Below are positions 6,530 to 61,958 of a stretch of DNA of 64,000 nucleotides, piece after piece. The position numbers and the translations under genes were made by a program. Origin of the DNA: Azolla caroliniana (lineage: Eukaryota; Plantae; Polypodiophyta); assembly GCA_043228905.1 (NCBI GenBank), contig JBHGNT010000001.1, positions 7,626,001 to 7,690,000 of the forward strand. Direction: 5' to 3'. Numbering within the stretch: the first letter of the stretch is position 1; each line of letters starts with the position of its first letter. Under the pieces are notes generated by a model. It saw only the letters and a list, made by a program, of their open reading frames with translations, was not told where the DNA came from and ran no database searches.

Positions 6530-9388
6530 TCAAGTTCTAGCAGATGCATAAACATTACTCATAGAAATATAAGCTGAGGCATAGGTGTCATCCAATTTCA
6601 TTGCATGCTCAAAAGCTAGTCTTCCAAGTTCCACACTCTGCCCTCTTTGACAAGCACCCAAGAGAGAAATCCACATTGGCAGATAATCCAACACTGGCAT
6701 CGTCATAATCATTGTCATTGCTTTATCGATATTCCCTGCCCTAGTAAAAAGGTCAACCATGCAAGTTTGGTGTTCTAAAGTTGGGATGATCCCATAGTCT
6801 AACCTCATACTTATAAAACACAACTGACCGCTATCCACCAAGCCTGAGTGTGTACATGCATTAAGCACAACTGTGAAAGTAACCAAGTCCGGCTCCACGC
6901 CATCCCTCATCATTTTGTTGAATATGTTGATAACGATATCCTCCTTTCCCACCTGCGCATATCCAGCCATTAATGCCGTCCATGAGACTACATCCCGAAT
7001 CTTAAGCTCGTCAAACACTTCTTGAGCTTTGGAAGGAGCCCCACATTTACTATACATATCAAGCAATGCATTTCCATACAAAACATCTTTCTCTAACAAC
7101 CCCGCTTTGATAATATCAGCATGTATTTCTTTGCCCTTGTCTATTGCCCCTACATTGCTACATGCTTTCAAGGCATAAAGCAAAGTGGAATCATCGGGAG
7201 AGAATCCTTCGCATTGCATTTGCTCAAAAAGGTTTAATGCTTCCTCATCATGTTCATTTTCGACATATCCTGCAATCATTGTGTTCCAAGACATTATGTC
7301 TCGAACTGGAAGCTTGTTGAATACCTCTTGCACTTTCGTCAGCTCCCCACATTTGGGATACATATCCAACAACGCATTGCTAACCAATACACTTACTTGA
7401 GATAACCCTTCACTGACAACCTTAGCATGTATTACCTTCCCTTGCTGAATTTCTCTTAATCTGCCACAAGCTTTCAACATACAAATATAGGTGAGTGCAT
7501 TTGGAGAAACGCCCTCACAATGCATCCTTTCAAAACACTTCAGAGCTTCCTCATTATAGCCATGCTGAGCATATCCTGCTATCAACGCATTGATCAAAAC
7601 TACATCTGTATTTGGAATGTGACTGAAGGTTTCTTGAGCTTTTGCTACTGCACCACATTTGACATACATGTCCACCAATGCTGTGCCAAGCAACACATCG
7701 TTTCCCAGCCCTTCTCTCATGATCTCAGCATGTAACTGTTTTCCCCTGGTGAGTTCTCCTATACTTGCACATGCTTTCAGCACAGAAACAAAAGTAAAAG
7801 CATCCGGAGAAAGGCCCTGAAGTTGCATCATTTCAAAACAGTTTACTGCTGCCTGCCCATAAACACCATTAGCATAAAGTTGAATGATTGTGTTCCAAGA
7901 GACTAAGTCCTGAACTGGAAGTTCATCAAACACTTCTAGGGCTTTTGTAAGCATGGAACATTTCGCATACATATCTATCAAAGCATTGCCAACAGAGATG
8001 TCAAACAACCCTTCTTTGATTACATAAGCATGTATTTCTTGACCCTTATTTGATGCTTGTAAGCTGCCACAAGCTCTCAATACGGAAACCAAAGTGATCG
8101 TATTTGGTGAAACACCTTCACGCTGCATCTCCTCAAAACAATGCAATGCTTTATCACCTTGTTTGTGTTGCATATATCCAGCAATGAGGGCAGACCATGC
8201 AACCACATCTTGAACACGAAGTTCATCGAAAACATTTTGTGCTTCAGTTATTGCACGGCATTTAGCATACATATCAACCAATGCATTGCCAATTGGAATA
8301 TCCCTCTCTAAAAATCCTTGCTTAGTAACAATTGCATGCATTTCTTTGCCCTTATGGATCGATGTTATACTGCCACATGCATTCAAGATATACACACAAG
8401 TAACTTGATTTGGAAAGAGGCCCTCTAGATGAATTTGGTGAAAAGCTTGAACTGCTCTTTCTCCATATCCATGTTGCACATAGCCTGCAATGAGTACATT
8501 CCAACAAACCACGTCATGCATCCTAACCTGATCAAACGCCTCCTGTGCGTTTTCTACTTTACCACACCTGCCATACATATCCACCAATGCAGTCCCAAGC
8601 ACGGTGTTTGTTTTCAACCAGCCCTCTCTAACAATTTCAGAATGTATTTCTTTCCCCTTATCAGCTAAACTGATGCTACCACAAGCCTTCAGTATACAAA
8701 CATATGTGACAGCATTAGGAGAGAAACCATTTTTTTGCATTGATTGAAAACACTTGAATGCTTCTTCAGCATACTCATGTTGGGCATATGCAGAGATTAT
8801 TGTGTTCCAAGAGGCCACATCCCAAACCAGTGAAAGGTCATCAAATACTTGTCTTGCTTTCACAAGGTCGCCACATTTTGCATACATATCCACCATGGCA
8901 GTCCCAACCAGAACATTTGTTCTTTGCAATCTTTCTATTGCAATTTTGGTATGTATTTGTTTGGCTAATGCCAAACAAGATTCTCCAGTGCTACCACAAG
9001 CTTTTAAGACACAAACAAAGGTTACCGAACTCGGCAACAGGGCCTCACATTGCATCCTTTCAAAACAATGCAATGTTGCCACACCATGACCATGTTGGGC
9101 ATATCCAGACATGATAGTATTCCACGATATGACATCCCTAAGACAAAGATTGCTGAAGAACACTTCCTCCGCCTTTGCAATTACACCACATTTTATGTAA
9201 ACACTCATCAGAGTACTGGCAATGTATACGTTTTCGTCAAGTAGTCCTCCTTCGAGGATGTCGCTGTGAATCGCGATGACTTTATCGAGGTCTTTTTGTT
9301 TTGCATGAACCTTGAGGGTAGCCACAAGGGCAGTACCCTCTCCCAGCTTCTGGAGTTTTCCATGTATACCTTCATGAGCCTTCTTCAT
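6530..9388 (-). CDS. PLS-class PPR protein, E subclass (about 26 P/L/S motifs + E1 + partial E2, no DYW), 952 aa, intronless
   Basis: Eight S motifs (DMY.KCG type) alternate with P (DVVSWN..I.GY) and L (P..VTF..VLKAC) motifs. These are followed by P2-L2-S2 (EHQTCMVDLFTRAG), E1 (WISLLGAC) and a truncated E2 (AYISMSNVYAS*). Confidence 0.95.
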   Translation of the reverse strand: MKKAHEGIHGKLQKLGEGTALVATLKVHAKQKDLDKVIAIHSDILEGGLLDENVYIASTLMSVYIKCGVIAKAEEVFFSNLCLRDVISWNTIMSGYAQHGHGVATLHCFERMQCEALLPSSVTFVCVLKACGSTGESCLALAKQIHTKIAIERLQRTNVLVGTAMVDMYAKCGDLVKARQVFDDLSLVWDVASWNTIISAYAQHEYAEEAFKCFQSMQKNGFSPNAVTYVCILKACGSISLADKGKEIHSEIVREGWLKTNTVLGTALVDMYGRCGKVENAQEAFDQVRMHDVVCWNVLIAGYVQHGYGERAVQAFHQIHLEGLFPNQVTCVYILNACGSITSIHKGKEMHAIVTKQGFLERDIPIGNALVDMYAKCRAITEAQNVFDELRVQDVVAWSALIAGYMQHKQGDKALHCFEEMQREGVSPNTITLVSVLRACGSLQASNKGQEIHAYVIKEGLFDISVGNALIDMYAKCSMLTKALEVFDELPVQDLVSWNTIIQLYANGVYGQAAVNCFEMMQLQGLSPDAFTFVSVLKACASIGELTRGKQLHAEIMREGLGNDVLLGTALVDMYVKCGAVAKAQETFSHIPNTDVVLINALIAGYAQHGYNEEALKCFERMHCEGVSPNALTYICMLKACGRLREIQQGKVIHAKVVSEGLSQVSVLVSNALLDMYPKCGELTKVQEVFNKLPVRDIMSWNTMIAGYVENEHDEEALNLFEQMQCEGFSPDDSTLLYALKACSNVGAIDKGKEIHADIIKAGLLEKDVLYGNALLDMYSKCGAPSKAQEVFDELKIRDVVSWTALMAGYAQVGKEDIVINIFNKMMRDGVEPDLVTFTVVLNACTHSGLVDSGQLCFISMRLDYGIIPTLEHQTCMVDLFTRAGNIDKAMTMIMTMPVLDYLPMWISLLGACQRGQSVELGRLAFEHAMKLDDTYASAYISMSNVYASART

Positions 9389-9496
9389 GTCTTCTTCTTA
9401 TCCCTCTTCATGTCTTCTTCTTCTTCCTCCTCTTCCTCCTCATGTCTGCTTCTTCTTCTTCTTCTTCTTCTTCTTCCTCCTTTTCCCTTCAGCCAT
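9385..9496 (-). promoter_or_regulatory. Three chained Lys/Arg-rich uORFs (9440-9496, 9408-9443, 9385-9411), each stop overlapping the next ATG (ATGA)
   Basis: Read directly from the sequence: MAEGKRRKKKKKKKKKQT*, MRRKRRKKKKT*, MKRDKKKT*, then the main ORF MKKAHE. Transcription of this region is assumed. Confidence 0.5.
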
Positions 9497-12411: not shown

Positions 12412-15400
12412 TTAAAACCCAAGATTCACTTTGTCTTTGTTACTATTGTTAATAGAGATGCCTTGATTAACACCAGCACCTCCACGAGTCTTGCCCAAGC
12501 GCATTCGAGGATTTGGTCCTACCGGAAAAGCCTCCTTCAAGAAGCAAACACCAAAGTGTTACTTATTTCCATTTCTACAGAGGTACACACCAAAGAGCAG
12601 ATAGAAGGGGCAGAAAGAAAGTAATTCTCCTGGATGCCCACATAGAAACATGGGAAAAACATCGAAATATTCTTTTGGATATTTTCCAGAATACCCTTAG
12701 TCACTAAAGAATTACCAGGACACCCATTCGTAGTTGTAAATATTGTACGGAGGTAATTTTTCATGGCTTGAGGGTATTCTGGGAAATAACACAACAGAAT
12801 TGGACATTTTGGTGTTTGTCCCAAACAAAGCAGCATAAATGCTGAAGAAAACCTGGTCTCCTATATTAGGACCTCCTGAGTGGAAAAGAATAGGTCGGCA
12901 TCGTTTATCCTCGTTCATCAGGCTTGAATTCTGAAAATGAGCAACCAGGGCTGATTTTCCTTGTATTCGTGCATAGGCTAATGAAGCCACCTTTTCACTG
13001 TTGAATTTTTCCCATCTTTTACCATTAAATGCCTGAGAAAATAAACCATTGGGTCAAAACAACATACTAGCATATAACTCTATAATTGAGCAGTAGATAG
13101 AAATCAACAAAGACCTGGTAAAAGGAGACAATCTTTGAAGGTTCTGTCATATTGATAAAAGCATAACCAACATTGCATTTATTCTGCAAAGAGAAAGAGA
13201 TTCAACATTGAGATTATGGGTTTCTTCAACATTTCATACTTTCTAAAGAAATTATGGAGTAAAAATCCAATCAAACCTTAAAGTCAATAGGAAGGTAAAT
13301 AAAATCATATGTCCCTTTGTGTTGCTCATCTATGGCAGCCAACAGCATCTTTGATGTATACCTGTGTATAACCACAAACCGCTTAGAACTCAAATTTCTG
13401 ACCCCAACAGTGTTCCATTTCTACATTATGGTTTCCAAGCTTCAAGTTTGAAGAACAAACAAGATTCAAACTAATTGCTGAGAATCATACTTGTTTGGTA
13501 TATTTTTGATCATGAGAGTGGTGCGTATGTCTCCTCCTTGCAGTATCTTCTCAATGTCCAGCTCATACTGTTTTCTATCATGTTGTGCCAGTGGATTATC
13601 AGTTTTACGGCTTCTACTACCACGTTCCATCCCACCCCAATCAGAAGCTGCATCAACTGCTGGCTTTGAAGTTGAGCTCCCTTTGGGCTGTTGTGACATC
13701 AGCCATAGGTTAGGATAAACAGTATGGTCCACAAATCCATTACCCAATATGGTATTTGGCATAACACGACCAAGACTGCTTGAGAACTGAGGTTCCATTG
13801 AATTCTTCCTTCCAAATACTACTCCAAGGGATCCACTGTTTACTGAGAGAGGTGTTTCAAAGGATTCCCTAAAAAATGTCTGACGTTGATCTAAAATGGG
13901 AAATGGTGCTACAGGAGCAGAGCCCACTGGATGATGATGATGATATGCTGATGGACTAGACCCATTGTTTGGGTTAACATCCACAAATGGAAAATGATTA
14001 ACAAATCCACTGACACCCAAAGACTGTGCAGCTGAAATATCTTTATGGTATAAAGAATTCAGATTGTTCCCTAGAAGCCCAGTGACTGGTAAACTCTCTA
14101 GTGAGCATGCTTGCAGTGAAGCTGGCAAAAGACCTGGTAAGCATCCAGCCAAAAATATGAATGAGCATTCAGACTACAGATTTCTGGATCGTAATTTAAA
14201 TTTCACGTGAGATGGTATGGCATTTGCCTCCATTTGGCGATCGAAGCAATGGCACGTTGTTGAAATTGGATATGCCCATTTTTGTCAGATTATTCGAAAT
14301 CATTTGGGCTCTCAGTGCTGAAATAGTTGTTGCAGAGCTATGTTGCACAGCTTCCACAAGGCCATGACCAAATTCAGAGAAAGTGTTTGGCCAACCATAG
14401 GATGCTGGATTCATACCACGCCCCGTATAGCCCAAAGAATTTGAAGCTTTAACTGATTGCATGTTTTCAGTGAAAGAACTATCATGAACTGCAAGGTTTA
14501 TGCACATACAAAATCAATATATATACTCACATCAAAAGTGTATAATCTAAAGTGTTTCATCGAGTGAATGCACGTTCATGCCCTACACATCCAGATTGAA
14601 AGATTAACCATGAAAGGAAACAAGTCACTCAAACCTGACGAAGACTTGGTAGTAACTGGAGAGCTAGCATTAGAACTTTCCTCTTGTTCCAATTCATGTG
14701 TCAAGTGCTGCATAAGACTATTCAAAATAAAGATAAGAATTTTTCCAAAGAATGAATTTGAGGAGTTTTCAGCATGAAATGTACCTTTTGCGCACACCTC
14801 CTGGCCTACTAGGTTCCAGTTTAATACGTTTGCCTGCGATGTCACACCTATTTAATGCTCTAAGAGCTGCTTCAGCAGATCTTACATCATAGAACTCTAT
14901 AAATTTGTGATGTCGTTTGTGTGGTGTTTCACGGATCTGTGAAAGACAGGAAAATGCAGAATTAAAAATAAGACCATAACAATCCATTCATCATAAACTT
15001 ATTTTGAAGTCATGCACGTCATTACTTACCTCTTTAACCTCACCATAAACCCCAAATATTTGCAAAAGGTCATCATTAGATACTGATGCATCAAGATTAA
15101 AAACAACTAGTGTCCCTTGGTTCACATCTTTGTCAGACGGGTTATCCTGTAGAATATCATATAAATAAACAAAGATTAGCGGATAGAAGTAGGTGCATTT
15201 GTGATTGTGAGTATTCAAGTTAGTCCTTCTGTCAAGTTGAACATTATACCAAACTATCTCAAGATAACTTAGATTTCAACCACATAACTTGACAGATTAC
15301 TTCTAATAACTATGTCTCATTTTAACACGGTGCACCTTGGGTATAGAGAAATGTATGTCCAGTTTCCGGCGTCGCAAAGCTTTATTCTGAAGAGCTCGCA

Positions 15401-32858: not shown

Positions 32859-34580
32859 CTAAGGAGACTCTGAAACATCTATTTTAGGTTTAGTAACACT
32901 ACTTGTAAGGAGCCCCGTGAGATAAACTTGGCATTTAATGATGGTATTGTGCACACGAAAGCCAGGCATCACCGTGAATCCCACCATGGGTATTGTATCG
33001 GTAACACTGATACCGACCATTTGCACTATGCTTTCCATATAGAGAGGAGAGAAATTTGTATCTCTCTTAACCTCAAAGATCTGAGCTCGTCCGGGCCGAA
33101 ATGAGAAGGCCAACTTATGCAACATCCACATGGACTTTGCGAGCTCGACAAAGCTCTGATAGAATTGCGTGTTAGGGTGAATGCCGTTGCACACTTGTTC
33201 CCTATGCTTGAGGTTCCCAAAGAATGATTCTTCCATCTTTGGATGAATGAGTTCTACAAACCTCTTGAGACAATACTTCCCAAAATCACATTCTGGTTTT
33301 GCCATGACCATTTCTGAAGGATCTCTAGTTCTACACTCTTCAAATTCCTTGAAACACACTTCTTGGCTTCTATAACAAGACGATTTTTCATCATCATCAT
33401 CATCATGGACGCCAAGGTCCTCTCTTTCAAAGTTGTTGAGCATTCGCTTGGAAATGTAGGATTCGAACACAAACTTCTTGTGGGTTTCTCGTGCATAGTC
33501 AATGTTGGGCTCAATTGAATTTGCAGCTGATTCTAAACTCCATTGGGCCCTCTTCATCAACGATATCAAGAGCTTTGCAAAGTTCTTCAAGGCTTCAGAA
33601 GCTCCTAAAACCATAGATTCAAGCAACTGAGGAGATGGGCCCAAGGATAAAGAAGTTCTACTATCAGAGATTTTGAGGGTGGGTTCTCTCAGAGATAATA
33701 GCCTTTGCTCGAGCTTTTTCACCTTCTTCTCAAGCTTCTCCCTCTTGATTGTGGTGTGCCCTAGCGTTTCCTTCAAGTCTCGGATGATCCTGTCTTTGAC
33801 TTGGATCTCGGCCCGAAAGCTCTCCATGATCCAATCATAAGGAGATATTACCGAGGTTTTTGTCTTTACAAGGTCTTCTTCGTTTATATTATGAGGGGAG
33901 CTAATGGCGGCCATTCGGGCTCGATAGATTTGTTTGAGCTCGGAGAATTTATTGAGCTCAGCGATCACAGTGTCATTTGCAAGGCGAGATTTCTCAGAAT
34001 CATATGGGATATATACTGAATGGAGGTGAACAAATGCATTCTTAAGTGAAGACACAGTCGAGAAGACACTCGAAATGAGAGCTTCCATGATGTGGAGCTT
34101 CAACGAGGAATCGCTAGTCATTTTCGGGGACTCACTCATATCAGCCGATGCTTCTCGGCCGATGGCAGCAAATGTACCTGACAATGGTGTGGCATCACAG
34201 AAGAAGTCATCAGGATTGAGGAGATTCTTGCTTGTGCCACCATTTGACTTGTCACTGACATCGGAAGATGGAAGAACATGTCTCTCACCAATGTCACCAT
34301 TTGATTTCTCACTGGTGCCACAGTTTGAGGTCTCACTGATGTCGCCATTAGACCTCTCGCTCATGTCACTGCTCGACTTCCCACTGATATCATCACCCTT
34401 TGAATTTTCGGCTCTGTCACTCTCGAAGACGATGGATTTCTCATTGTACGTAGTAGGCCATGCCTCTGATGCTACTACAGCTGCAGCTTTGTGTAATGAT
34501 TTGAAGCTATGGACTGTGTTTTGTTTGTGAAAAGTATCCATGTTCGGGCTCTTGGAATGCACCATTACCACTGTTTCCAT
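32859..34580 (-). CDS. DUF641 / GIL1 / IRK-interacting protein (IRKI)-like coiled-coil protein, 573 aa
   Basis: Motifs EALISSVFSTVSSLKNAFVHLHSVYIPYD..DTVIAELNKFSELKQIY, YCLKRFVELIHPKMEESFFG, FYQSFVELAKSMWMLHKLAFSF, FSPLYMES and VGFTVMPGFRVHNTIIKCQVYL. A 5'UTR intron is likely (donor GCAG|GTAATT at about 35225). Confidence 0.9.
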   Translation of the reverse strand: METVVMVHSKSPNMDTFHKQNTVHSFKSLHKAAAVVASEAWPTTYNEKSIVFESDRAENSKGDDISGKSSSDMSERSNGDISETSNCGTSEKSNGDIGERHVLPSSDVSDKSNGGTSKNLLNPDDFFCDATPLSGTFAAIGREASADMSESPKMTSDSSLKLHIMEALISSVFSTVSSLKNAFVHLHSVYIPYDSEKSRLANDTVIAELNKFSELKQIYRARMAAISSPHNINEEDLVKTKTSVISPYDWIMESFRAEIQVKDRIIRDLKETLGHTTIKREKLEKKVKKLEQRLLSLREPTLKISDSRTSLSLGPSPQLLESMVLGASEALKNFAKLLISLMKRAQWSLESAANSIEPNIDYARETHKKFVFESYISKRMLNNFEREDLGVHDDDDDEKSSCYRSQEVCFKEFEECRTRDPSEMVMAKPECDFGKYCLKRFVELIHPKMEESFFGNLKHREQVCNGIHPNTQFYQSFVELAKSMWMLHKLAFSFRPGRAQIFEVKRDTNFSPLYMESIVQMVGISVTDTIPMVGFTVMPGFRVHNTIIKCQVYLTGLLTSSVTKPKIDVSESP

Positions 34581-37500
34581 TGTATCTCCAATCTATGTAG
34601 ACATGGAAAATCGACAAAAAGAGATGGAATAAGTAGAAGAGATGATTTGATGATAGAGTTTGAAGTTGCAGTGGTATTGAGGGTTTTGTTATTCTTTCTG
34701 ATTCAATAATTTATCGTAACTAACAGATGTTGCAAGTTTTGTATAGCTAGAAATGCTAGAGCTTTTCGAGGGGAGAAAAACTACTGACCAATTTAAAGTT
34801 TAAGCAGAAAATACTAAGTTTCGGAACACCTAATTAGCAGGGAAAATCCTAAATTTTAAGTTTCAACATGGACAAAAGAAGTTAGGATATTGCTTCCTTG
34901 TTCCAATCACACGGGAAACTAAACTATGAATATCTGATAAGTATCATTTACAAAATATGAAGATAATATATCAGAAAATGGGGGGAATGCAGATTAAATT
35001 TAGGGTTTTCTTTTCCCTGATTCGACATGCAGAAAAAAATCAAGGTTTGCATGTCCCCTTAGTGGCAGAATCCCTAAATTATGAAGCTCAACATGAATTT
35101 CTTTTCAGGGTTTTCTACCTTACAACCACGAAATTGGCATAATGAAAAGCAAATAATATTTTGTTCAGGATTGCTACTTCTTGTAAATGTAGCAAAGGCT
35201 TTAATAAAAAAAAAGGACATAATTACCTGCAAGATTAGGGTTAGTGTTTCTGCTAGAGCTTTCAATGCATGAAAAATTGCAGCCAAAATTCTAGGGCTAC
35301 TTCCGTTCTTCCCGATTTCTGATTGCGCTGAATAGGAAATGACCAAAGCTCATCCAATATTAAAGAAAGCTTCCTGGAAGCCCTAAATGCAAGCATTTAC
35401 TTGAAATTTTCCTTGTCTTCTCCTTTGGTGTCTGATCAGAGGCAAGGATGGAGACTGTTGAGATGAGCCTTAAATAAATAGGATGGAATGAATAGATAGA
35501 TAGATGGGAAGAAGAAGAAGAAGAAGAAGAAGAAAGGAGGAGGAGGAGGAGGAGGATATGGAAATGACAGTGGGTGCAAAGGAAAGAGAGAGGTGACCAA
35601 AAAAAGAGGGTATGGAAAATCAATGAATGAATAAAACTAATAAACAAATGGGAGAAGAAGCTATGGGGGGTGGGGGGGGTCCAGAAATAGACATAGCAGC
35701 TGCAGCAGCAAACAGCTCAGACCTGCTCTGTTTTTGCTCTGTTTTTGCTCTGTTCTGTTCTGCTCTGTTCTGTGCAGAGAAAGAAATGATGGGAGGCTTC
35801 ATCTGATTCTGTGAAGAAAAACCAAAGACAGGAGGAGCTCATAATAATAATAATAATAATAATAAAGAAAAAAGCAAAAAAAACAAATTAATATTTACAC
35901 CTCTGTTTATCTGTCTCTATAAAAATGTTTGTTTACTTTTATTTTTATGTTTTGTATTTTAATTTGTAATTTTATTCTGGTATGTCATGTCTATGTATGT
36001 ATGTATGTCTTTGCTCTCTTATTTTCACCATAAATTTACAATCATATTTATTTCCTGTATTTATGTGTGTTCGTATATTTATTTATTTATTACGTATATG
36101 TATTCCTTTAAAATATGTGTATATAAATAAATAAATATGTACTGTAGATAGATAAGATAACCCCCCCCCCCCAATTTCCATATATATTTATTTATGCCAT
36201 TTTTTTAGTGCTCTCTCTCTCTCTCTCCGATTTTATTTTTCTTCCTAGTATAATTAAGCTCTATAGAGAGAGGTAAATAGGCTTGTGTCAGATTTTGTTG
36301 AGCTTCTTCATGGACCACACAGCCCAAGCCAAGACCCCAATGAATGGGAAAGTTAAAAGAGCAAAGAGCAAGAGAAAGAGCAAAAGACAAGAGAAGAGAA
36401 GAAGAGCTGGGCCGGCCAATTCATCGTGGACTCCCGGCCCGACATTTGGCTCGCGTACCCTCAATTCCCTTCCCTTACGAGCTCAACCCCAGATATAAAT
36501 CCCCCACATTGGTTAGTTCATAGTCCCGAGCGCGAGAGCCTTCTTCGCGCACTGTCAAAAACTCGAGTGGGTCTTTTGGCAAGAATCGCCCATTTCTATG
36601 GCATTTCCTTGTTCGTAATGTCCCATGTAACACGTGTTTATCGTTTGGCCTTAGAAGACGTTAATATATCTTTCTTTCTCTCTCTCTCTCTCTCTCCCCA
36701 ACCCATTCTAATGCCGATTCCTATTATTTCACCTTCTCCATAGCTACGTAGTAATGACTAGTCACATATCTTATCTTTTGTCTCCTTCCTCTCCCTTACA
36801 ATCCTCAAACGTTAGAGCAAGCATGTGAATCTTTGTTTCGCCTTGTGTCTTGGTGTGTGCATGTACATGTCCTATAGTATTTCTAATCTAGCAACCAGTA
36901 ACAAATTTGCATGCCTCCCCACCCTTTGTGGATGCATTATGGTCATACCGATTGCCATCGTGATAAGACATTGTATAGTAAGTCCCTCCCCGAATCCCCA
37001 AATCCTCAAATGTTTTCGAGGGGATACATCATTCATGAGGTTTCTAAACTACATATTGCATGGCATAGCCCTCTCAAAACAATAACATATGTGCCTCTAG
37101 TAAACAACGTGATTATTGTTCCCTATATAATTTTACTTCCCACATACTTTGAACTCTTCTCCATTCTCCTTGCATTTGTGTGAATTAGTCAACTTGCTCA
37201 TGCTAGTCACATAGTTCTCATACTTTGGCCACATGGATTGTTGTTGCTCTTAACCCTAACTTACCTTGATTTTGACTAGATTTTATAGGGGCATGGGGAG
37301 AATTTCTCCTCCATCATATGGTTTTGCCTAAAGGACCCATCTCTCAAACATAGCATGTTGGAACCATTGTTTAGATATCTTACCCCACTTTTGAATATCA
37401 TCATCCCCCATCGTTAACCACAAAAAATTCATTTGTTTTACATGTGCCATATAAGAACTATGAATATTATCGACTCAATGGTGCTCCTTGCACTCATTAG

Positions 37501-49179: not shown

Positions 49180-49710
49180 GTCCTTAGTTAAGTCCACACC
49201 TGAAAGCAACTTCTTATACCAAGCATCAGATGCATGTGAATCGTCCCCATTACGCCCAACGTGTAACGAATAATCAGAATCTAGCTCCCAAAGTGAGGGT
49301 TTCCCTTCCATACCTCTCAAGAAAAATATTATTATGACCATAAGATCCACCATATTGTAATGTCAATGCATCTCCCATATTTTGATACATATCCATCAGA
49401 GCATCTGCTATATTGTTGTATGGATCAACCTTGGGAATATCTAACATGCCCAACGAGAATACATGATGACCTAAGACAACCAAAACATACACATATTGAG
49501 CAACATTTTTCTAATCCAAGCAATCAATACACCTTGTTCTGAAAACTCCACGCTGATATCATGGTTCCTTTCTATCCTTGCCATCATTTTGACCCTACTT
49601 TTGTAAAAATTCAATTTGTTTAGTGCTCTTTGGTTCAATCTTTGTTAACTTTGGCAATTCACTTAAGTCAGTCAAAGATTCTCTCAAACCTTTTGCGGGC
49701 AACTTTGGAA
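49180..49710 (-). pseudogene. Intronless fragment of a SAC-domain phosphoinositide phosphatase (SAC1-5/FIG4 type)
   Basis: YQRGVFRTRCIDCLD*KNVAQY (decayed RTNCIDCLDRTNVAQ catalytic motif), ALMDMYQNMGDALTLQYGGS.GHN, then after an internal deletion EGKPSLWELDSDYSLHVG. Confidence 0.85.
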
Positions 49711-50799
49711 ACATAGGAAGTGTGAAAGCATCACATCTCACTAATTTCTTCGAGAACCTACTAAACATTTGATCTATGTGATCATGTGTGTGACAAACTA
49801 GTAAGAAGTTGACCTTAATCTTTTTGAAAATACCCATGTCTACTAACATGCTTAAATAACCAAACACAATCGAGTTCTTGTTTTATCTCGCCGTGTTGTC
49901 TAGTTGCACGCATAGTACTGGCAGGTGTAAACCTTGCCAAGTCTGCAAAACTCTTTGCATGACTGTTACTGTAAGATTAGGGTCGTTGTGGATATTTGGA
50001 TAAGTTAGGAACACTTGAGGCCTTATTGTCTGACAATATAGAAGACAACCTACTAAGTCCATCTGCATTAGGCATTCATCTCCAATATCCTTGGGCAACC
50101 TATGAAAGTGTAGCAAACAAGTTTTCTTTTGATCCATCCCACCTATAATCAAGCACATATACCTTTTCGGTGATTGAAGCGCTTTTTGACGATGGTGCAT
50201 AACTTTAGATCTTTCCAACGCTTGACTTTCTCAATGTTCTTTTAATAAATTATTATAATTGTTTATTTCTTCATCTGTTGTCCCACTCTTTGCCATGCTT
50301 TTTAAACTTGCACATATAGAACAAACAACCATTCGGGCCTTATGGGGTATGATCACATTGTTAAACTTCAATCTCCATAATCGATTAAAATGCCGATATT
50401 GTATGTAAGGTACACTTTCTAATAACATGTCACCCTTATATGCTTGGTACACCTCACAACGAGTGAAGTTATCTGAGAAATGTAATCTTCCAGTGGTGGG
50501 CATAACGTCAGATTGCTTCGAGAAATATATCTCCATCCATTGAACGACATGTTGCCTAATCAGACCCTTACATCCAAAATTTTCTTTATTGTTGAAAGGT
50601 ACCCACAATACCTTTACTAAGCGATGTTGAATTCTCTAGAGCCTCATGTTACCAATGCTATAAGAAATCTTGAAAGCTACTCGACAACCCTTCATACTAA
50701 GTGAAAGGTAATATTCCACATGCAGAGAACTTGAAACTGCCGTGTGGTCCTCAACAAGTTGCATATGTGAAATCAAGAAAGTATCTTCTTCGTCGCCAT
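49710..50799 (-). mobile_element. DUF7869-like (probably Sola-type) DNA transposase pseudogene, 3' part
   Basis: DVMPTTGRLH, VCSICASL, LII(G)GMDQKKT.L.HF, LPVL.VQLDNTAR*NKN, and FLLV(C)HTHDHIDQMFSRFS, with several stops. The family name is from motif recognition only. Confidence 0.7.
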
Positions 50800-51313
50800 T
50801 GTCACGGACACACCAAGCATGCACTAGGACGTAGCACAGATGATGGGGCTACGAGCGATGGATGAATTTGGAGCTAGATGTGACGAGGCTAAGAACTGTA
50901 GATGTTGTGAGCGACATGAAGGCATGAAGATAGAAATAAAGATCAAGGAGACAGAGATGAGACAAAACGAGAATACTAGATTCATGTTTCAATGACTGGT
51001 GTTGAATCCCTTGAAAGGGACCAAGGATGTTACAAGTATTTATACAATTTCCGAGATTGAATATCTCTAGAATATACTCGAGAAATATCTCAAGAATATA
51101 CCCGTTTAGAATATACCACAGAATAATTCTAGAATATACTAACGACTAGAATATTCTCGAATGTACTATACAATAGACTCTACAATATATACAAGTTCAC
51201 AATCCGTGTGGACAATTCACAAGAGTTTTTATATGGTTAATAAAACACAATGTACTATGTGTGTTAAAGGTCAAAGGTTCGAGTCTAGAATGTGACATTA
51301 TCCCCCCTGTTAC

Positions 51314-53585
51314 TGTTACAAAGGTGTTGTATGGTTTTAGGGTTAGGGATGACGATTATGATAGCATAATTATAATGATGGGTGTGATGATGGAGATAAG
51401 CATTGTGGAATGGTGGAGATGGTGAATGGTATGATGGTGAGAGAGATCATGAAGATGTTGACAAGCATTGAGAAGCATTGCGGGGTGGGGGGTGGTGCCT
51501 AGAATGGCACCACCCCCCTCCCAAGGGGGTTCAATGTTAAGGGGAGGGAAGAGAGAGAGGGAGAGAGAGATTGAGAGAGAAATGGTTGTTATTGTATTCA
51601 TTCATTCCCCATAAGGGGTTAAATAGGTACAAAGGGGTAGATCCACAAGGGTGCAAGCACCCTTGGCATTCACACCTAGTCACTTACTCACACCTCTTTG
51701 TATCTACCACACTCACACTTACATTCGCACTCATAATCGTATAAAGTCACACATACATATCCACACATTACATCTTTCACCCTCACTTATCACAATTATC
51801 AATCATCCGTACATCTCGTACGGTAACACAAGATGGCACGCCCGTGGGAGAGTGCCTTGCACGTCGATCCCACATGCCTTGATCATAAATTTTCTTCGAC
51901 CGGAATTTCCATCGGTCCTCTCAACAATTGACTCCCTCGATCGGAGTACTTGACTCAAACATCTTCGTCGGTCAGCGAATCTTCATCGACACAAACATTC
52001 TCATTCTGTCAGCTCACAAACTTTGGTAACATCATTCGGGTCGCCAAAAAGACGTTGTGTGTATGTGTGTTCTTCTTTGTATCTTGTGAATTGTGTGTGG
52101 ATCACGTCCATTTCTTTTAGGTTCATGAGTTTTTAACATTTCGTAGGTGCCCTTTGATTTTTTAAAATTTTGACAATGCCATCATGTTTTTCGAAATTCT
52201 TCGGATGCTCTGGGGTTTTCAAAACTCCTCGAATGCCCCTTATCATTCTCTTTTTACCTCTTTTTCCTTTTCTTGTTTCCTTTCTTTTTCTCTTGCTTCT
52301 GTCGTTTCCCTCCTTTCTATCTGTCTGTCAGATTGTCTCCTTCGATTCCTTCCTTCTTCTTCTTCTTCTTCTTGATTTCTTCTTCTTCAACGTCTCTTTC
52401 TCTGTGTTCTCTAGTATTCTTCTCTCGCGTGCTTCCTTCTTCCATCTTCTTGGTGTTAAACTCTGCTTCTTCTCCTTCTTTTGACATTCTTTTCTTCTTG
52501 TTCTTCTCTTTCTCCTTCTCCTTCTCGTTCTTCGTCCTTGTTCTTCGTTTCTGTCTCCTTTTCATCGCCGCTCCTTTGGCCGCTACTGTTCAGACTTTGG
52601 CTATCCGGTCATTGTCCCGGCTGCCGCTTCGACTGCTGTCTGGCCACTCCAACCGCTCCAGTTTCTCCTGTCCGGTCACTCTCCGGCCTATCCGACCGCT
52701 TGAACTACTGTCAGTCTGTCTCCATCTTCGTCGTTGTCTGGCGTCGTCCGGTCTGGCCGCCTCTGTTCCGGCGCCGTTCAGCCACTCCGACCGGTCTTCG
52801 GTAGGTCTCCGGCCGGCGCTTCTCCAGCCTCTCCTCTGTCGATGTCGTTGTTCTAGCCATTGAACCATCTTAGTCCGGCTCGTTCCGGTCCGTACTGGCC
52901 GGTTTTCTAGCAGTCGGTTCAGCTGCTCCCATCTTTGTTCATCTTCTCTGGCTCTGTGGGCGTCTTCTTGGTTGCTATCTGGTCGTCACTCTTCTTGGCC
53001 GCTGTTCGTTCCAGTTGTTTGTCTGTTTCTTTTCTGTCTCGTATCTCTGTTCCTTCTGGTCGCCTTTCTGTTTTTTTCTTTGGACCCCATCCTTCTCGTT
53101 GCTTTCTCTTCTCTTTTGCAATTAGATCTATGCCAAATAGACCGAAGAAAAACCAACAAAACACACTCGAAAAGACCTTAGCTCGTAGAAAAATCGTGCA
53201 ACAATGAATTTGGCATTTTCATTCCCATTTCTCGTACACTCCCACATGTTGCTTCCATTCCTTGTTAGTTCGTTGCACAATCGTTCCGACAATCAATCAT
53301 CAATCTACCATTTCCTGCTTCTTATGCACATCATGGTCGCCATTTGTTGCACATTGTCGTCAATTCCATTTCTTGCAGATCATCACCATGTAACATTCTT
53401 CATTTTCCTTGCGCACAACATCACCTTGTTGCATTCCTCAATGGCTTTCAACCACCATCACCATTTCCTGCACGTCGTCCATTTGATTTCTTGCATATTT
53501 CGTCGTTGCCATGTCTTTGCCGTGTAGTAGTCTTCGACTTCGTCTTCTTCAAAGGGGGGTCGCCTTAGTGGTCGACAAAAACTGT
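51314..53585 (+). mobile_element. Nested Tat-like Gypsy derivative: LTR 51314-51828, tRNA-Arg-type PBS, non-coding internal region
   Basis: TGTTAC...GTAACA LTR followed by TGGCACGCCCGTGGGA (51834-49). A PPT-like AAAGGGGGG lies at about 53551. No matching second LTR was found. Confidence 0.6.
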
Positions 53586-53964
53586 GTTACTCCTTAGGGC
53601 CAGACAATGGCTTAACACAAGGTGTTTACGGAAGACACTTTACTAAAGGGGTGTTACGGCGAGATAACTTAAGACACAACGATTAATAAGACTTAATTGG
53701 GTATTTAGCAATATGGCATTAGATTGATACACGCGTACGATAGAACAATTAGTACAGAACGGTAATCAACACTTGAAGATAAAACAAGAAGCTCTATTAA
53801 TTATCCGTCAAAGTTTTACATTGTAACCGCGCCTTTATATAGATCACCGGTGCTGAGTACAAAACGGTGCCAACCGACACCTGTTCGGAACCGGTCCGGA
53901 ATAAGGTTTTAAATGGTAATAGTTATGTCGCCTTCCCAAATCGGTCGTCGCCTTAAGGGAATAT
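53585..53964 (-). mobile_element. Possible additional solo LTR fragment
   Basis: Imperfect inverted ends (TGTTACTCCTTAGGGC / GCCTTAAGGGAATA) and a minus-strand TATATAAA at about 53834-53841. No clean TSD. Confidence 0.4.
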
Positions 53965-54044
53965 TGTTAATGAAAGTCTTAGACCACCTCCAAAGTATTT
54001 TGTAAATCGTAGAAAAGGAGTAGCCCTTCCACAACACGAGGTAT

Positions 54045-54945
54045 TGAACACCAACGAGCATGAGCGACCATGTGCGGTCCTCAGGGGGAGCACGAACACC
54101 AATGGGCATGAGCGATCATGTGTGATCCTCACTGAGAACTGGAACATGAACAACAACAACAACGGGCATGAGCAACCATGTCGGTCCTTGTCGGGATCTG
54201 GAACACGAACAATAGTTGGAATGAGCGACCACGTGCGGTCCTCACCGGAGAATGGAACACGAACGAGAGTGGTCGACCATGCAACCCTCACCAAAGACTA
54301 GAACACAAACGGGAGTGAGCGACCATGTGGCCCTCACCGGAGACTGGAACACTAATAGGTGAAGGAGTGCAAGTGACGCGGTCAACTCGACTTCTTCTAT
54401 TATGAGAGGGTAAATAGTCGAGGTTGACCCAAAACATGGCACAAACGGCAACGCTAGTGAGAAATTGATGCGATCCACACAAGGAAAGTGAGTGGTTGTG
54501 ATAACCCACCGAAATTAGAAGGTGTGCGATCGAAATCGATCCTTGTCAAAAGAGAGTGGAGTGAAATGTAGACCGAAATGAAAAATGGAATGTAACTGAG
54601 CAACGATTTGATCCCCACCCCGAAAGTGAGTGGTTGTAACCCCACCAAAAACTAGGAAGGTGAGCGATCAAAGCGATCCTCGCAAAAGGAAAGTGGAGTG
54701 AAACTTGAACTGAAATGAAAATGGAGTGCAAGCGAGTGATGATCCGATCCCCACCAGGAAAGTGAGTGGTTATGACCCCCATCGGAACAAGAAGGTGAGC
54801 GATCAAGATCGGTCATCGCCAATGGAAAGTGACACGAGACTTGAATTAAAATGAAAACGGAGTGCAAGCAAGCGATGATCTGATCCCCACCAAGAAAGTG
54901 AGCGGTTGTGACCCCCACCTGAACTGGGAAGGTGAGCGATCGAAA
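54045..54945. repeat. Two tandem arrays inside the non-autonomous LTR element: ~55-bp units (54045-54350) and ~137-bp units (54485-54945)
   Basis: Recurrent GAGCGACCATGTG.GG.CCTCAC.GGAGA.TGGAACAC and AAAGTGAG.GGTTGT.ACCCC...GATCCCCACC. Confidence 0.8.
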
Positions 54946-55635
54946 GCACTCACCACCAAAACCGTGATGCAAAATGATACCTAAAAATGATGACAAGTAG
55001 TGTTGATGACGACGATGGTTGGGCGAAGAGGTGCTGAAAATGATGATGTCAAAGATAAGGATGTTGACGATGGTAACTCCGGAAGCAAGGATGGTGATGA
55101 TGATAACTCTAAAAGCAAAGGCAATGACGAAGACGGGTGGTGCTCCCAATTGGAAGGGATTCAAACTGTCATGGACACACCAAGCGTGGACTAGGACGGA
55201 GCACAGATGATGGGGCTACGAGCGACGGATGAACTTGGAGCTAGATGTGACGAGGCTAGGAACTCTAGATGTTGTGAGCGACATGAGGGCATGAAGGCAG
55301 AAATAAAGATCAAGGAGACAAAGATGAGACGAAACGAGAATACTAGATTCATGTGTCAATGATTGGTGTTGAATCCCTTGAAGGGACCAAGGATGTTACA
55401 AGTATTTATACAATTTCCGAGATTGAATATCCCTAGAATATACTCGAGAAATATCTCGAGAATATACCCGTTTAGAATATACCACAGAATAATTCTAGAA
55501 TATACTAACGCCTAGAATATTCTCGAAGTTCACAATCCATGTGGACAATTCACAAGAGTTTCTATATGGTTAACACAACACAATGTACTGTGTGTGTTAA
55601 AAGTCAGAGGTTCGGGTCTAGAATGTGACAACCAT

Positions 55636-56070
55636 TAATTGACAAATACTTCTGTCGCAACCCCCTCAAGTTTGCCTTTCCAAAATTTGAAAGACAAAGA
55701 TTCCCACAACATGGCTTGCATATATCAAATGCAATTTGGCGATCTGAACACAAAAAATTATATCTTTCAACACTCACTTGTCGAGAACTCTTCGAAAATT
55801 CAGAGGCTTATTGACACAATCCTATTCAACATTACATAAACTAGAATACTCATGATCCGTAACTACTTTATTATTTCGTAGTCTACCTAAGTTAAAAGGC
55901 TCGATCGAAAAATGCGATTTTGAACTTTGCCCAACATCATCGTTGGACTCTACATGGCACTGTTTATTATTTATATAGTTATATTCCTCCATAGAGAATA
56001 AAGAGTTATCAGATAATTTAAAAGGCTCAATGGAGAATAGAGAATTTTTACTCGAGGTTGAGGACATCTC
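55636..56070 (-). mobile_element. Probable 5' part of the interrupted DUF7869-like transposase
   Basis: Lies immediately beyond the LTR TSD on the same strand. A decayed reading frame plausibly continues into 50799. Inferred from position. Confidence 0.4.
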
Positions 56071-56499
56071 GACTAAGGCTAACTAACCTCAACTAAGTCG
56101 AAAATAGCTCAAAATTTTATACTATAATAAGTCACAGTTAAAAATAAAATTTTAAAAATAAATAAAAATACATAAAGGAAAGTCATCTTCTCATTGCCAT
56201 TATCGCATTCAAGAAGCCCAAGAGCACATAGCCATCCCAAACCCTCCATTTTCGCCTCTTTGATCAACTCGAGTTCACATCAGCAACATGAACAAGAGAA
56301 AGAAAATTGCTAGGTATTTGCTTTTAACTGTTTTTTAAGATTCTCTAAAGATTCCATTTTAATTTTGTTTATTTTTGCATCGAGAACTCGATGCAGTGCA
56401 TCGTGTTCCCGTTGAAAGCCACCCTCCTTCAACAGGAACCCGATGCACTGCATCATGTTCCCGTTGAAAGAGGGATTCCATCGAGTTCCCATTGGATTT

Positions 56500-58864: not shown

Positions 58865-61725
58865 ATGAGGTAAAATCATCCATGTTCGAAATGGGCCATA
58901 AAGTCGACGCTGATATAGAGCTATGGAATAAAAGAATCGGCCCCATCAACCTCCAAAAGCTCAAGGTGATGCGATCAAAAGTAAGTCGTCATCGGACTCC
59001 CTACATTTAAAGAGAAGGATATCAATGGAGTATGTGATGCATGCTAATTCGGCAAGCAACATCGGCAACTATTACCGAAAGAGAGGAATGTGAGCAAAGG
59101 CCTACTGGACGTAATCCAGTTGACAAATGTGTGGGGACCTACTTAGACGGGAACATTCAGAGGATGTTTATACTATGTCACCTTTATACATGACTTCTCT
59201 AGGCACACTTGGATCTTCTCCATGAGGCAGAAAAGTGAAGTGTTCGCACACTTCCAAAAATTCAAAAGTGAAGTCGAAAAGGAAACTGGTTGGCATGTTA
59301 GATGCCTACGGTCGGACGGAGGAATAGAGTACTTTTCCGATGATTTTTCGATTCATCTCCGCAAAGAAGGAATTCGACAAGAATTTATCTGTCGACACAC
59401 ACCTCAACAAAATGGAGTAGCCGAAGGAAAAATCGGCACATATTGGAGGTGGCATGAGAAAAACCTACCAAAGTCGTACTGGGCAGAAGCAGCAACCACA
59501 ACCGTATACCTCATGAATCAGTGCACAACATCAAGAGTGCACGACATCACACCCCATGAGAAATGTTTTGGGAAGAAGCTAGATTTTTCTCACATCAGGA
59601 TATTCAACTCAATTGCTTATGTACATATTCCCGACGAGAAGTGACAGAAGTTCGATCTTAAGTCGAAGAAATGTATCTTTGTAGGGTACTCACTCGAAGA
59701 AAATGGGTACAAGTGTTATAATCCTTCTACCCGAAAAGTTCGAGTCGAGACGTCGTTTTCGACGAGTCGACATCATGGTATGAACTAGAATCAAATTCCA
59801 CTCTGGCCCCACCCGACCAAGAGACACAAGATGCCGGTCGATCGTGGTATCTAATAGAACAAAGCCCGATCACGACTAGGCTTAGTAGAGCCTCCGAGAA
59901 AGGAAGGAAAAAACTACTGGAATATGAAGATGATCAATCTAATGACAACAAATAAACTCACTCACACAATAGTGAGCTCGGTGCCTTTGATGTACCTATC
60001 ATGAGGACACTTGGTGTAAAGAAAGCCATTGCCATAGCCAATGAAAAACTCTGACACTCCACCTGTGAGAAGAACATCGCCAGCCGATTCGGTTAGAACG
60101 ACTATATGGTGTACCATTATGCCTTTATGATGAAGGTGGCGACTATTCGAGAACCGAAAAGTTTTTCTGAAGCCGCTAAAGATCCTCGATGGATCAAAGT
60201 GATAAACGAGGAGATGCAAGCTCTCAATAAGAACAAGACATGCGATCTCGTCCCTCACTCACCTCACAAGAAAGCGAATTGTTCGAATTGTGATTGAACT
60301 TGCAATGGCAAAATGGTGGCACCTCCACTAGATGGACGTAAAGAATGTCTTTCTTCAAGAAGAAGTAGAAGAGGAGGTCTTCATGATCCAACCAACCGAG
60401 TTGTGAATTGACCAACCATCTGACCGTAGTTTGCTAACTCAAGAAGCCGTTGTATGGTTTGAAGCAAGCACCACATGCTTGGCATTTGACGATTACTGAG
60501 TATCTTCACGAAATCAACCTTCGAATGTCAAAATCGGACCTCATCCCCTTATATAAGAAGCGATTCTGAAAGCCCGATTGTCATCATCCTATACATGAAT
60601 GATCTAGTCATAAGAGGACAGAATTTAGCCGACATCACTAAGGTCAAATCCCTCCTGTCCAACAGATTCGAAATAAAAGACATGCAAGAGCTCCATTACT
60701 TCCTCGACATAAAAGTAAGTTGGACACCTGTCTGGATCATGATCTCCCAACGACACTATATCCTCAACTTGTTATACAAGTTTGGGATGACTGAGTGCCG
60801 ACTAGGCCGGCTACAACGCCTACCGATGATTGACTGCAGGGTCCATCTTCTCTCTCGGTAGTGGAGCTATCTCATGGAGTAGTAAGAAGTCGCCGACCAT
60901 CGCACTTTCGAGTACGGAGACCAAATACATGGGTGCGGTTGTGGCTGAATATGAAGCCGTATGGCTTAAGCAAATTCTGAAAGACCTTGGCGTCTGCATC
61001 AACGAGTTAGTCCTGATCTATTGTCACAATTTTAGCCGCATCCATTTGGCTTGGAACCCAGTATTCCATGTTCGGACAACGGATATCGAGGTGCACTACC
61101 ACATCATTCGAGAACGTGTCATTGCAGGGGATGTCGACCTTCAACATATCAGTACCAATCTTCAAACGGTCGACATCTTCACGAAAGCTTTGGGAATCGA
61201 CACGTTTCGATTGAGCTTGGTCTTTCAATCTACGACTTGCCAAGCTTGAGAGGGAGTGATAGTCGACCAGTGTCGTGATGTGGTGCATTGAATGTGGAAA
61301 AAGCCGATGAACAAGGGCCAAAATGTCTATGTGCAATGTGCATGCACACAAAGGCGATTATTTGTGCACATGCACATTAAAATGGAAAATGAAGGGTGCG
61401 AAGGAGGCACACAAAATCGTGGGGGGTTGAAAGTAAGAGAGAGGAGAGATGAAAAGTAGGAGAAAGAAGGAAATATGTGTCGTATAAATATTAAGTAAGA
61501 GAGAATTAATGGCTTAGTGATTAGAGAAATTGACCTCTAACTAGAGATGCACGGTTCGTATCCAATTTGATAGTATAACATGATTTAAGGAGACTTACTC
61601 CTTTTGCATTAAATCTAAATGTATAAAAGGAGTATGAGGGTCACCATTACTTTCTAACATTAACTATGTGTCATAGAATCATATTCTATGACACATAACT
61701 AATGAGTTCCTACATTCCCCATGAC

Positions 61726-61958
61726 TGTTAAGAGTCTATTACTAATCAATAGACCAAACTAAGTAAAAGAAGGAAAATAGATTGGATAGAAGAACCCGTT
61801 CCACCCATCCTAATATCCGGCGGTATGGTACGTCAGTGGTAGGTCAGTTATGTCTAGATCATAGCTCGGGGGTGGTCGGGTGGAACGGGTTCTTCCATCC
61901 AATCTATTTTCCTTCTTTTACTTAGTTTGGTCTATTGATTAGTAATAAACTCTTAACA
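61726..61958. mobile_element. 233-bp palindromic MITE-like element with 81-bp inverted arms
   Basis: Arms 61726-61806 and 61878-61958 differ at 2 positions. TGTTAAGAG...CTCTTAACA termini and perfect 5-bp TSD ATGAC. Confidence 0.9.

What the first reader, a model, noticed from the sequence alone, without database searches (positions are those of the whole stretch)
55140..55410. Self-priming (tRNA-independent) LTR retroelement: the PBS is complementary to its own predicted mRNA 5' end
Seen: 2 nt after the 5' LTR (minus strand) there is no TGG-type tRNA PBS but TTGAATCCCTT (55154-64). Its perfect 11-nt complement AAGGGATTCAA starts at 55379, 31 nt downstream of the first T of the LTR's TATAAATA (55410), which is where a TATA-directed start site is expected. 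The motif is kept in the other LTR (51002-12). U5 GTGCTCC (55198-204) can also pair with GGAGCAC just downstream of the PBS (55140-46). Known: fission-yeast Tf1 primes reverse transcription with the first 11 nt of its own transcript, aided by U5-leader stems, and related elements are chromoviruses. A chromodomain vestige (VQYLVLWKGYS) lies next to where the PPT sat before nesting. Inference: a non-coding Tcn1/Tf1-like parasite element that keeps the self-priming cis structure.
Basis: partly seen in the sequence, partly recalled or inferred. Interest (0 to 1): 0.8.

Follow-up and report, generated by a model that had tools for sequence, protein, structure and literature searches.

The report
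Self-priming non-coding fern retrotransposon family
A gene-less, high-copy fern jumping element has a primer site that pairs with the predicted start of its own RNA instead of a tRNA, and in a subfamily both halves changed together at four letters, so it likely copies itself by the self-priming trick known from yeast Tf1.

Summary
Confirmed, and stronger than stated. The minus-strand LTR element (55630-50800; about 2.2 kb without a 2.6-kb foreign insert) has no tRNA-type PBS. The 11 nt at 55154-64 exactly complement 55369-79, 31 nt below the TATA box (chance 8 of 20000). The host is a fern. Family copies from metagenome contigs give a natural test: 20 of 23 distinct LTR-PBS junctions pair 11/11, and three of them changed four letters on both sides. 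Mismatched junctions are hybrids that switch between +9 and +29, spanning the Tf1-type cleavage point. No gag or pol was found; a chromo-box motif (6/7) hints at chromovirus ancestry, but Tcn1 membership is untested without an RT, and the start site is unmapped. Self-priming is proven for Tf1 and predicted for plant Tcn1 and TAR elements, and this scan noted similar cases on other DNA. I found no report in ferns or in a non-autonomous plant family. Verdict: new variant of a known kind.

The parts
55167..55630 (-). 5' LTR (464 bp, TG..CA)
   Evidence: 94% identical to the 3' LTR at aligned bases
55403..55410 (-). TATA box, 31 nt above the predicted start (32 nt in most family copies)
55369..55379 (-). 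Predicted self-primer (predicted first 11 nt of the RNA)
   Evidence: exact complement of the PBS; covaries with it; start site not mapped
55348..55363 (-). R strand of the R:U5-end stem
   Evidence: common variants keep or improve pairing
55168..55183 (-). U5-end strand of that stem; its TTGG (55183-80) can pair with R or with the leader CCAA
55154..55164 (-). PBS, 2 nt after the LTR, not TGG-type
55150..55153 (-). Leader CCAA, candidate third duplex with U5 TTGG (no covariation)
   Evidence: helix 4: 94.6% paired, no two-sided change; these letters were fixed by the search pattern
55198..55204 (-).
   Evidence: helix 3: 84.8% paired
55140..55146 (-).
53930..55166 (-). Non-coding internal region with 136-bp repeats (54466-54959) and shorter repeats (54047-54355)
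54017..54049 (-). Chromo-box-like remnant VQYLVLWKGYS (6 of 7 chromo-box positions)
   Evidence: motif from PMC3350952; 0 of 1500 resamples reach 6/7; similar motif in 4 further family translations P0096-P0099; no HMM hit
51308..53929 (.). Foreign insert, absent from all 31 family loci tested; begins with a plus-strand LTR-like segment (51308-51829) and a TGG-type PBS; no TSD found
51298..51307 (-). PPT remnant directly before the 3' LTR
50800..51297 (-). 3' LTR (498 bp), with primer copy at 51002-51012
50795..50799 (+). Left TSD copy (GCCAT)
55631..55635 (+). Right TSD copy (ACCAT)

Best explanation
This is an old, interrupted copy of a high-copy non-coding LTR retrotransposon family of ferns that likely primes reverse transcription with the first 11 nt of its own RNA, as Tf1 does, using enzymes likely borrowed from an unidentified, probably chromovirus-type, partner. 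Shown: LTRs, TSD, PPT, no coding hit, exact primer/PBS complement with four two-sided changes, and a conserved R:U5-end stem beside it. Inferred: transcription starts at 55379; the RNA's 5' end folds onto the PBS; the partner's RT/RNase H cuts after nt 11 and extends the fragment; the first-strand product lacks nt 1-11, so U3 plus primer come from the 3' LTR and R(12+)-U5 from the 5' LTR; copying the primer can rewrite the PBS to match a new primer.
For: Chance of the complement is 8 of 20000. In 29 LTR-PBS units (23 distinct): 17 A/A and 3 B/B distinct junctions pair 11/11, 1 has two primer changes, and 2 are A-primer/B-PBS. Pairs 5-8 change on both sides in B; cells with two-sided change 16 against 3.9 in shuffles (0 of 500), and slid controls fall to 34-46% paired against 93%. 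All 4 B-primer LTR units are followed by PBS B; 2 of them have no PPT upstream, so they look 5'-terminal. The folded ensemble gives P(primer:PBS) 0.93-0.95 in the 20 fully matched RNAs of 23 folded, 0.63 in L045 and 0.45 in the 2 hybrids. R:U5-end stem: 282 of 299 cells paired, one column CG 10 / UG 10 / UA 3. TATA-to-primer spacing is 32 nt in 29 of 33 LTRs listed, 31 in two, 35 and 36 in one each. The middle of R-U5 varies so that primer-to-LTR-end runs from 52 to 246 nt, while both stems persist. U3+primer and R(12+)-U5+PBS assort as blocks: the B U3 is unrelated to the A U3s (0.41-0.51) while the B R-U5 of three of four B units is 0.94-0.95 identical to an A copy's (0.89 for L031); the hybrids switch between +9 and +29, with two different A-type U3s. 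The PBS-B letters also appear as loose ends in runs X11 and X13 of two other organisms. Tf1 mechanism and three-duplex structure: PMC7175516, bioRxiv 2022.12.06.519325.
Against: The start site is unmapped and no RNA data were examined. The four two-sided changes are one lineage event, not four independent ones, and the shuffle test ignores relatedness. The search pattern fixed 7 of 11 PBS letters plus flanks and was designed after seeing variant B, so other PBS variants could not be found. 4 of 29 units are mismatched, and one (L001) appears 5'-terminal. The third duplex downstream of the PBS shows no convincing covariation, and RNAalifold pairs that TTGG with R instead. The whole 280-nt fold is no more stable than shuffles (z 0.56). 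The family contigs all carry one assembly-id series and are short-read assemblies of a repeat. No autonomous partner or RT was found.
Confidence: 0.85

Rival explanations
1. Priming is by a host tRNA fragment (half-tRNA or other small RNA), and the R 5' end pairs with the PBS only as a structural or regulatory helix.
For: Half-tRNA priming without TGG exists in plant Copia lineages (Osser, Bryco, Bianca; PMC6317226). Host tRNAs could not be screened.
Against: It needs two different host RNAs for PBS A and PBS B, each matched by coincidence at the predicted RNA start. PMC6317226 finds half-tRNA priming only in Copia, while the chromo-box hints at Gypsy. No tRNA-like sequence was found in the element.
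Confidence: 0.06
2. Self-priming is real, but the helper is a TAR-type Ty1/copia or another non-chromovirus element, and the chromo-box is a captured or chance fragment.
For: TAR elements are 89% self-priming with 5-bp TSDs (PMC6317226 supplement 5). There is no HMM support for a chromodomain. The TWE-like motif lies before, not after, the box. This rival concerns ancestry only and overlaps with the best explanation.
Against: The box matches 6/7, sits on the sense strand at the 3' end of the internal region where a chromodomain belongs, was reached in 0 of 1500 resamples, and recurs in 4 other family translations.
Confidence: 0.2
3. The complementarity is a DNA-level inverted repeat homogenised by template switching, or an assembly artefact, with no role in priming.
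For: The contigs are short-read assemblies of a high-copy repeat with tandem units. The B LTR has a 12-bp inverted repeat around the predicted start, so fold-back events may have occurred there.
Against: The pairing sits exactly at the PBS position and at TATA+31/32. The window itself has it. PBS B is also seen in separate runs. The stretch shared by A and B across the hybrid junction is only 21 nt, shorter than usual final assembly k-mers (recalled).
Confidence: 0.06

Closest known systems
Tf1/Tf2 of Schizosaccharomyces pombe and the Tf1/sushi group (Tj1, Tosmo1-3, Tcry1)
   Same: 11-nt complement between the RNA 5' end and the PBS; flanking duplex from PBS-adjacent sequence (the 'pretzel', bioRxiv 2022.12.06.519325); tandem elements sharing one LTR, as Tf1 forms by integrase-independent insertion (PMC11042837).
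   Different: No gag-pol here; fern host; the third duplex is weak and unproven; cleavage and priming are untested; two natural primer/PBS types within one family.
Plant Tcn1 chromoviruses (moss, club-moss)
   Same: Non-seed plant host, predicted self-priming (83% of 1500 elements), 5-bp TSD, chromodomain (PMC6317226 and its supplement 5); the survey's criterion of at least 10 bp starting 0-5 bp after the LTR is met.
   Different: [quoted passage not shown] Those elements are 5.5-9.4 kb and coding; this one is about 2 kb with only a chromo-box remnant, so clade placement is untested.
TAR Ty1/copia lineage (Houba, Osr-1)
   Same: Predicted self-priming plant LTR elements with 5-bp TSD (PMC6317226).
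   Different: Copia, coding, with no chromodomain listed.
TRIMs, including Cassandra tandem arrays
   Same: Non-autonomous, LTR-PBS-PPT only, tandem LTR-internal arrays (PMC6934838, PMC10886601).
   Different: TRIMs are under 1 kb, and those described there use tRNA primers or have no clear priming mechanism; this family has 0.75-1.5 kb internal regions, no 5S or tRNA sequence in the LTR and a self-complementary PBS.

Membership tests
Self-priming LTR elements (Tf1-type mechanism) | No tRNA-type (TGG) PBS after the 5' LTR | tested here: met
   Sequence after the LTR is GT then TTG in the window and, by construction of the pattern, in the family hits
Self-priming LTR elements (Tf1-type mechanism) | At least 10 bp starting 0-5 bp after the LTR complementary to a 5' LTR tract | tested here: met
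   11 bp starting at +2; 20 of 23 distinct junctions pair 11/11
Self-priming LTR elements (Tf1-type mechanism) | Primer tract is the RNA's 5' end | not testable with these tools
   Only TATA spacing of 31-32 nt; no RNA holder listed
Self-priming LTR elements (Tf1-type mechanism) | Primer and PBS covary | tested here: met
   4 adjacent two-sided changes in subfamily B, one lineage event; 4 of 29 units are mismatched hybrids
Self-priming LTR elements (Tf1-type mechanism) | Duplex between R and sequence just upstream of the PBS | tested here: met
   282 of 299 cells paired, one two-sided column; partly circular because the anchors fixed some letters
Self-priming LTR elements (Tf1-type mechanism) | Duplex between U5 and the leader downstream of the PBS | tested here: inconclusive
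   4-bp TTGG/CCAA 94.6% paired without covariation; 7-bp stem 84.8% paired and its exact U5 arm absent from 10 of 23
Self-priming LTR elements (Tf1-type mechanism) | RNase H cleavage after nt 11 and priming | not testable with these tools
   Indirect only: hybrid LTRs switch between +9 and +29
Chromovirus Tcn1 clade | RT/RH/INT phylogeny within Tcn1 | not testable with these tools
   No pol in the element or in the family frames scanned; partner not found
Chromovirus Tcn1 clade | Chromodomain at the end of pol | tested here: inconclusive
   Chromo-box 6/7 at the right place, 0 of 1500 by chance; no Pfam or PDB chromodomain hit
Chromovirus Tcn1 clade | 5-bp TSD | tested here: met
   GCCAT/ACCAT, 4 of 5, one copy
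TRIM | Under 1000 bp, non-coding, LTR-PBS-PPT | tested here: not met
   Non-coding, but internal regions of 746-1509 bp plus two LTRs of 450-500 bp
Cassandra / Helenus (small-RNA-derived LTRs) | 5S rRNA or tRNA-like sequence in the LTR | tested here: not met
   Rfam on 50700-55700 gave only one weak miRNA hit inside the insert; ARAGORN found 0 genes

The most novel reading that the evidence does not exclude
Ferns harbour an unreported Tf1/Tcn1-like self-priming chromovirus lineage with a very abundant gene-less parasite family that has switched primers in nature. It took up a foreign U3+primer block at the primer cleavage point, and the PBS was then rewritten by copying the new primer. The family's hybrid LTRs would be a genomic record of the cleavage step, the first mechanism-level evidence for self-priming in a plant that I could find.
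Probability: 0.45. Interest if true: 0.68.

Novelty: new variant of a known kind. Interest (0 to 1): 0.52.

Why it matters
Self-priming in plants rests, in the papers I could read, on complementarity alone (PMC6317226). This family adds a natural compensatory swap and hybrid LTRs whose switch point fits the Tf1 cleavage model. It shows that a gene-less element can likely parasitise a self-priming system, since it brings its own primer. It also challenges the report that Tcn1-like elements are likely absent from ferns (PMC2864245), which bears on their proposed horizontal transfer from fungi. A 52-nt minimal R-U5 copy (L025) and the A/B pair are ready-made constructs for a test.

Tried and rejected
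No own genome was held, so there was no genome-wide collection and no host tRNA screen. No RNA holder was listed, so the start site was not tested. The narrow lay on 55345-55400 listed no letter differences, probably because the stretch was too short; it was uninformative. Viral-contig scans gave 14 loci unrelated to the family and 0 hits. The genome-contig scan gave 4 bacterial records, not examined further. Searches used the wrong reading frame of the chromo-box stretch and were discarded; the right frame gave no word-sharing homologue, no chromodomain in PDB, and in the representatives search 12 hits with no chromodomain or pol: one fibronectin-repeat protein and 11 with no Pfam hit, of which the four read are translations of this family. 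The ESM Atlas gave no answer. One search had an off-by-one in the R stem and one mis-anchored unit, corrected. Copia gag and pol hits in L001, L007, L017 and L049 were read as flanks or nested inserts (L001 and L007 inspected; the other two not inspected). A general anti-primer hairpin in U3 was considered: strong in type B (-18.6 kcal/mol, 0 of 500 shuffles) but weak in the 14 type-A variants (p 0.01-0.26), so it is not claimed. The internal repeat as a coding frame: 104 of 115 spacings are multiples of 3, but 88 are simply the 48-nt unit, so it is not claimed. Levin 1995 and Lin & Levin 1998 were not held. Neumann's element table (Additional file 1) was too large to read and might list similar PBS sequences or fern entries.

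Full report
1. Observation. The element lies on the minus strand. Its 5' LTR is 55630-55167 and its 3' LTR 51297-50800, both TG..CA, with 26 mismatches in 464 aligned bases and a 4-of-5 TSD (K2P 0.059). Two bases after the 5' LTR comes TTGAATCCCTT (55164-55154), the exact complement of 55379-55369, which begins 31 nt below the first T of TATAAATA; the 3' LTR has the same 11-mer 32 nt below its TATA box. Such a complement arose in 8 of 20000 resampled LTRs. Folding the predicted RNA from 55379 pairs nt 1-11 with the PBS, although the whole 280 nt is not unusually stable (z 0.56).

2. Host and anatomy. No genome was held. The window's DUF641/GIL1 protein (32859-34592) has its best named hits in Adiantum and Ceratopteris. 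In a quick tree of 40 rows (the window plus 39 of the 93 hits) it falls in a 7-row group with SH-aLRT 100 whose three named rows are from those two ferns, on a long branch; the careful search did not finish. The host is therefore a fern. Bases 51308-53929 match none of 31 family loci and are a foreign insert; the family's own sequence resumes at 53930, and other copies run from there to a PPT and the 3' LTR in about 20 nt. Without the insert the element is about 2.2 kb. None of the frames inside the element among 93 scanned from 40000-64000 hit gag, pol or Chromo. Among 89 frames from 28 family loci, the only retroelement hits were copia pieces in four loci, which I read as flanks or inserts.

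3. Family. Laying four SRA contig sets on 55060-55660 at 80% likeness placed 2443, 2285, 754 and 745 contigs from four organisms, with many different flanks at the LTR end. Of 206 variant sites, 40 were shown; none lay in the PBS or primer. Those in the R:U5-end stem keep or improve pairing (55363, 55172, 55358, 55353). Loose ends at 55162 in X11 and X13 (3 contigs each) showed a PBS with four changed central letters. A metagenome scan leaving those four positions free returned 52 loci, 34 of them family (31 after dropping three overlapping fetches; 30 contigs, all from one assembly-id series). Of 35 family PBS matches, 7 lacked a usable upstream R and were dropped, leaving 28 units plus the window.

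4. Covariation. Of these 29 units, 20 are primer A with PBS A, 4 are primer B with PBS B, 4 are primer A with PBS B, and 1 has two changes in primer A; among 23 distinct junctions the counts are 17, 3, 2 and 1. Primer B differs from primer A at exactly the four positions that pair with the changed PBS letters, and by the complementary bases. On alignment A1 the named structure has 93.2% of cells paired and 16 cells with two-sided change (shuffled mean 3.9, 0 of 500); slid controls give 34-46%. This is one lineage event, relatedness is not controlled, and the pattern fixed 7 of 11 PBS letters, so further PBS types could not be seen. RNAalifold, given no structure, returns the primer:PBS helix plus an R:U5-end stem, 28 pairs in all. 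The distance from primer to LTR end varies from 52 to 246 nt while both helices persist.

5. The mismatched units. Three of the four lie at internal LTRs of tandem arrays and one (L001) looks 5'-terminal. The three compared (L001, L011, L042) are hybrids: A-type U3 and primer joined to a B-type R-U5 and PBS, switching between +9 and +29, with two different A-type U3s. The B U3 is unrelated to the A U3s (0.41-0.51 over 150 nt), while the B R-U5 is 0.94-0.95 identical to that of A copy L026 (0.89 for L031). In the Tf1 model the first 11 nt are cut off (PMC7175516), so by inference primer and U3 are inherited together from the 3' LTR, as seen in every LTR compared. Early strand transfer in a conventionally primed element, or recombination between LTRs, could also give this. 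Tf1 cDNA retains a PBS copy at its 3' end and forms tandems sharing one LTR (PMC11042837), which offers a route to both PBS rewriting and arrays; that link is inference.

6. Ancestry. VQYLVLWKGYS (54049-54017) fits 6 of 7 chromo-box positions (motif from PMC3350952); 0 of 1500 resamples did. A similar motif occurs in four other family translations but in none of the 31 loci at 6/7. No profile search supports a chromodomain. Chromovirus ancestry is likely but unproven, and Tcn1 membership is untested.

7. What is known. Neumann et al. 2019 (PMC6317226; passages and supplement 5 read) predict self-priming for 12% of plant elements, namely Tcn1 (83%, moss and club-moss) and TAR (89%); the word fern does not occur in their main text, and their element table could not be read. 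Novikova et al. 2010 (PMC2864245; passages and section 7) recovered no Tcn1-like clone from 26 ferns and horsetails. The three-duplex structure is from passages of bioRxiv 2022.12.06.519325. Only passages were read of PMC5341516, PMC4600332, PMC6934838, PMC7175516, PMC11042837, PMC3350952, PMC10886601, PMC13469084 and PMC8282616; PMC1940013 had no matching passage; Levin's primary papers were not held. Searches for Tcn1+fern, self-priming+non-autonomous+plant, self-priming+fern, fern genome+chromovirus and fern+TRIM arrays listed no report of such a family; this rests on the listings and the passages named above, and subscription journals and Repbase are not covered. This scan's own notes hold several similar predicted self-priming elements in other genomes, one of them non-autonomous, and none matching this sequence or place.

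8. Verdict. It works like Tf1 with probability about 0.85; it cannot be filed as Tcn1. The mechanism is known. New here are the fern host, the gene-less high-copy family, the natural primer/PBS swap and the hybrid LTRs. Novelty: new variant of a known kind. Interest 0.52.

Noticed in passing
L004 1337-1364, L011, L014, L031 (type B LTR, around the predicted start): A 12-bp inverted repeat spans the predicted start, so the U3 end is complementary to primer B; type A LTRs have only a weak 6-9 bp version. It might mask the 3' or internal primer copy, or record how primer B arose.
   Followed up: partly
L004, L008, L011-L014, L034, L039, L042: Many family contigs are tandem LTR-internal-LTR arrays; the contig behind L011-L014 alternates B and hybrid LTRs four times. 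Real arrays and assembly loops cannot be told apart here.
   Followed up: partly
L025 976-1057 (minus): A copy with only 52 nt from primer to LTR end keeps the primer, the R:U5-end stem and TTGG: a natural minimal structure.
   Followed up: partly
window 54047-54355 and family loci: The internal tandem repeat (mostly 48 nt) reads as an EDRTW-containing 16-codon unit resembling the C-terminal chromodomain motif, but it lies upstream of the chromo-box; it may derive from chromodomain-coding DNA.
   Followed up: partly
window 51308-53929: Composite insert: a plus-strand LTR-like segment (51308-51829) with a TGG-type PBS resembling a Tat/Ogre tRNA-Arg site (recalled), a CT-rich leader, a G-run at about 53554 and a second unrelated LTR-like stretch; no TSD found.
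   Followed up: partly
L023 about 1968-1981: A 3' LTR is followed by flank DNA that partly resembles the PBS, as in integrase-independent Tf1 insertions.
   Followed up: no
window 49598-50230 (minus): Broken DUF7869 (PF25273) coding fragments beside the element's insertion site, possibly an older mobile element.
   Followed up: no
window 59147-59641 and 60490-60858 (plus): Copia-type integrase and RVT_2 remnants.
   Followed up: no
window 6530-9397, 13466-14173, 32859-34592 (minus): Host genes: a long PPR-like ORF, an exon resembling a Mei2-like RRM protein (recalled), and a DUF641/GIL1 homologue.
   Followed up: partly
window 61726-61958 and 56375-56469: Long inverted repeats (81 nt at 98%; 42 nt at 83%), possibly MITE-like.
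   Followed up: no
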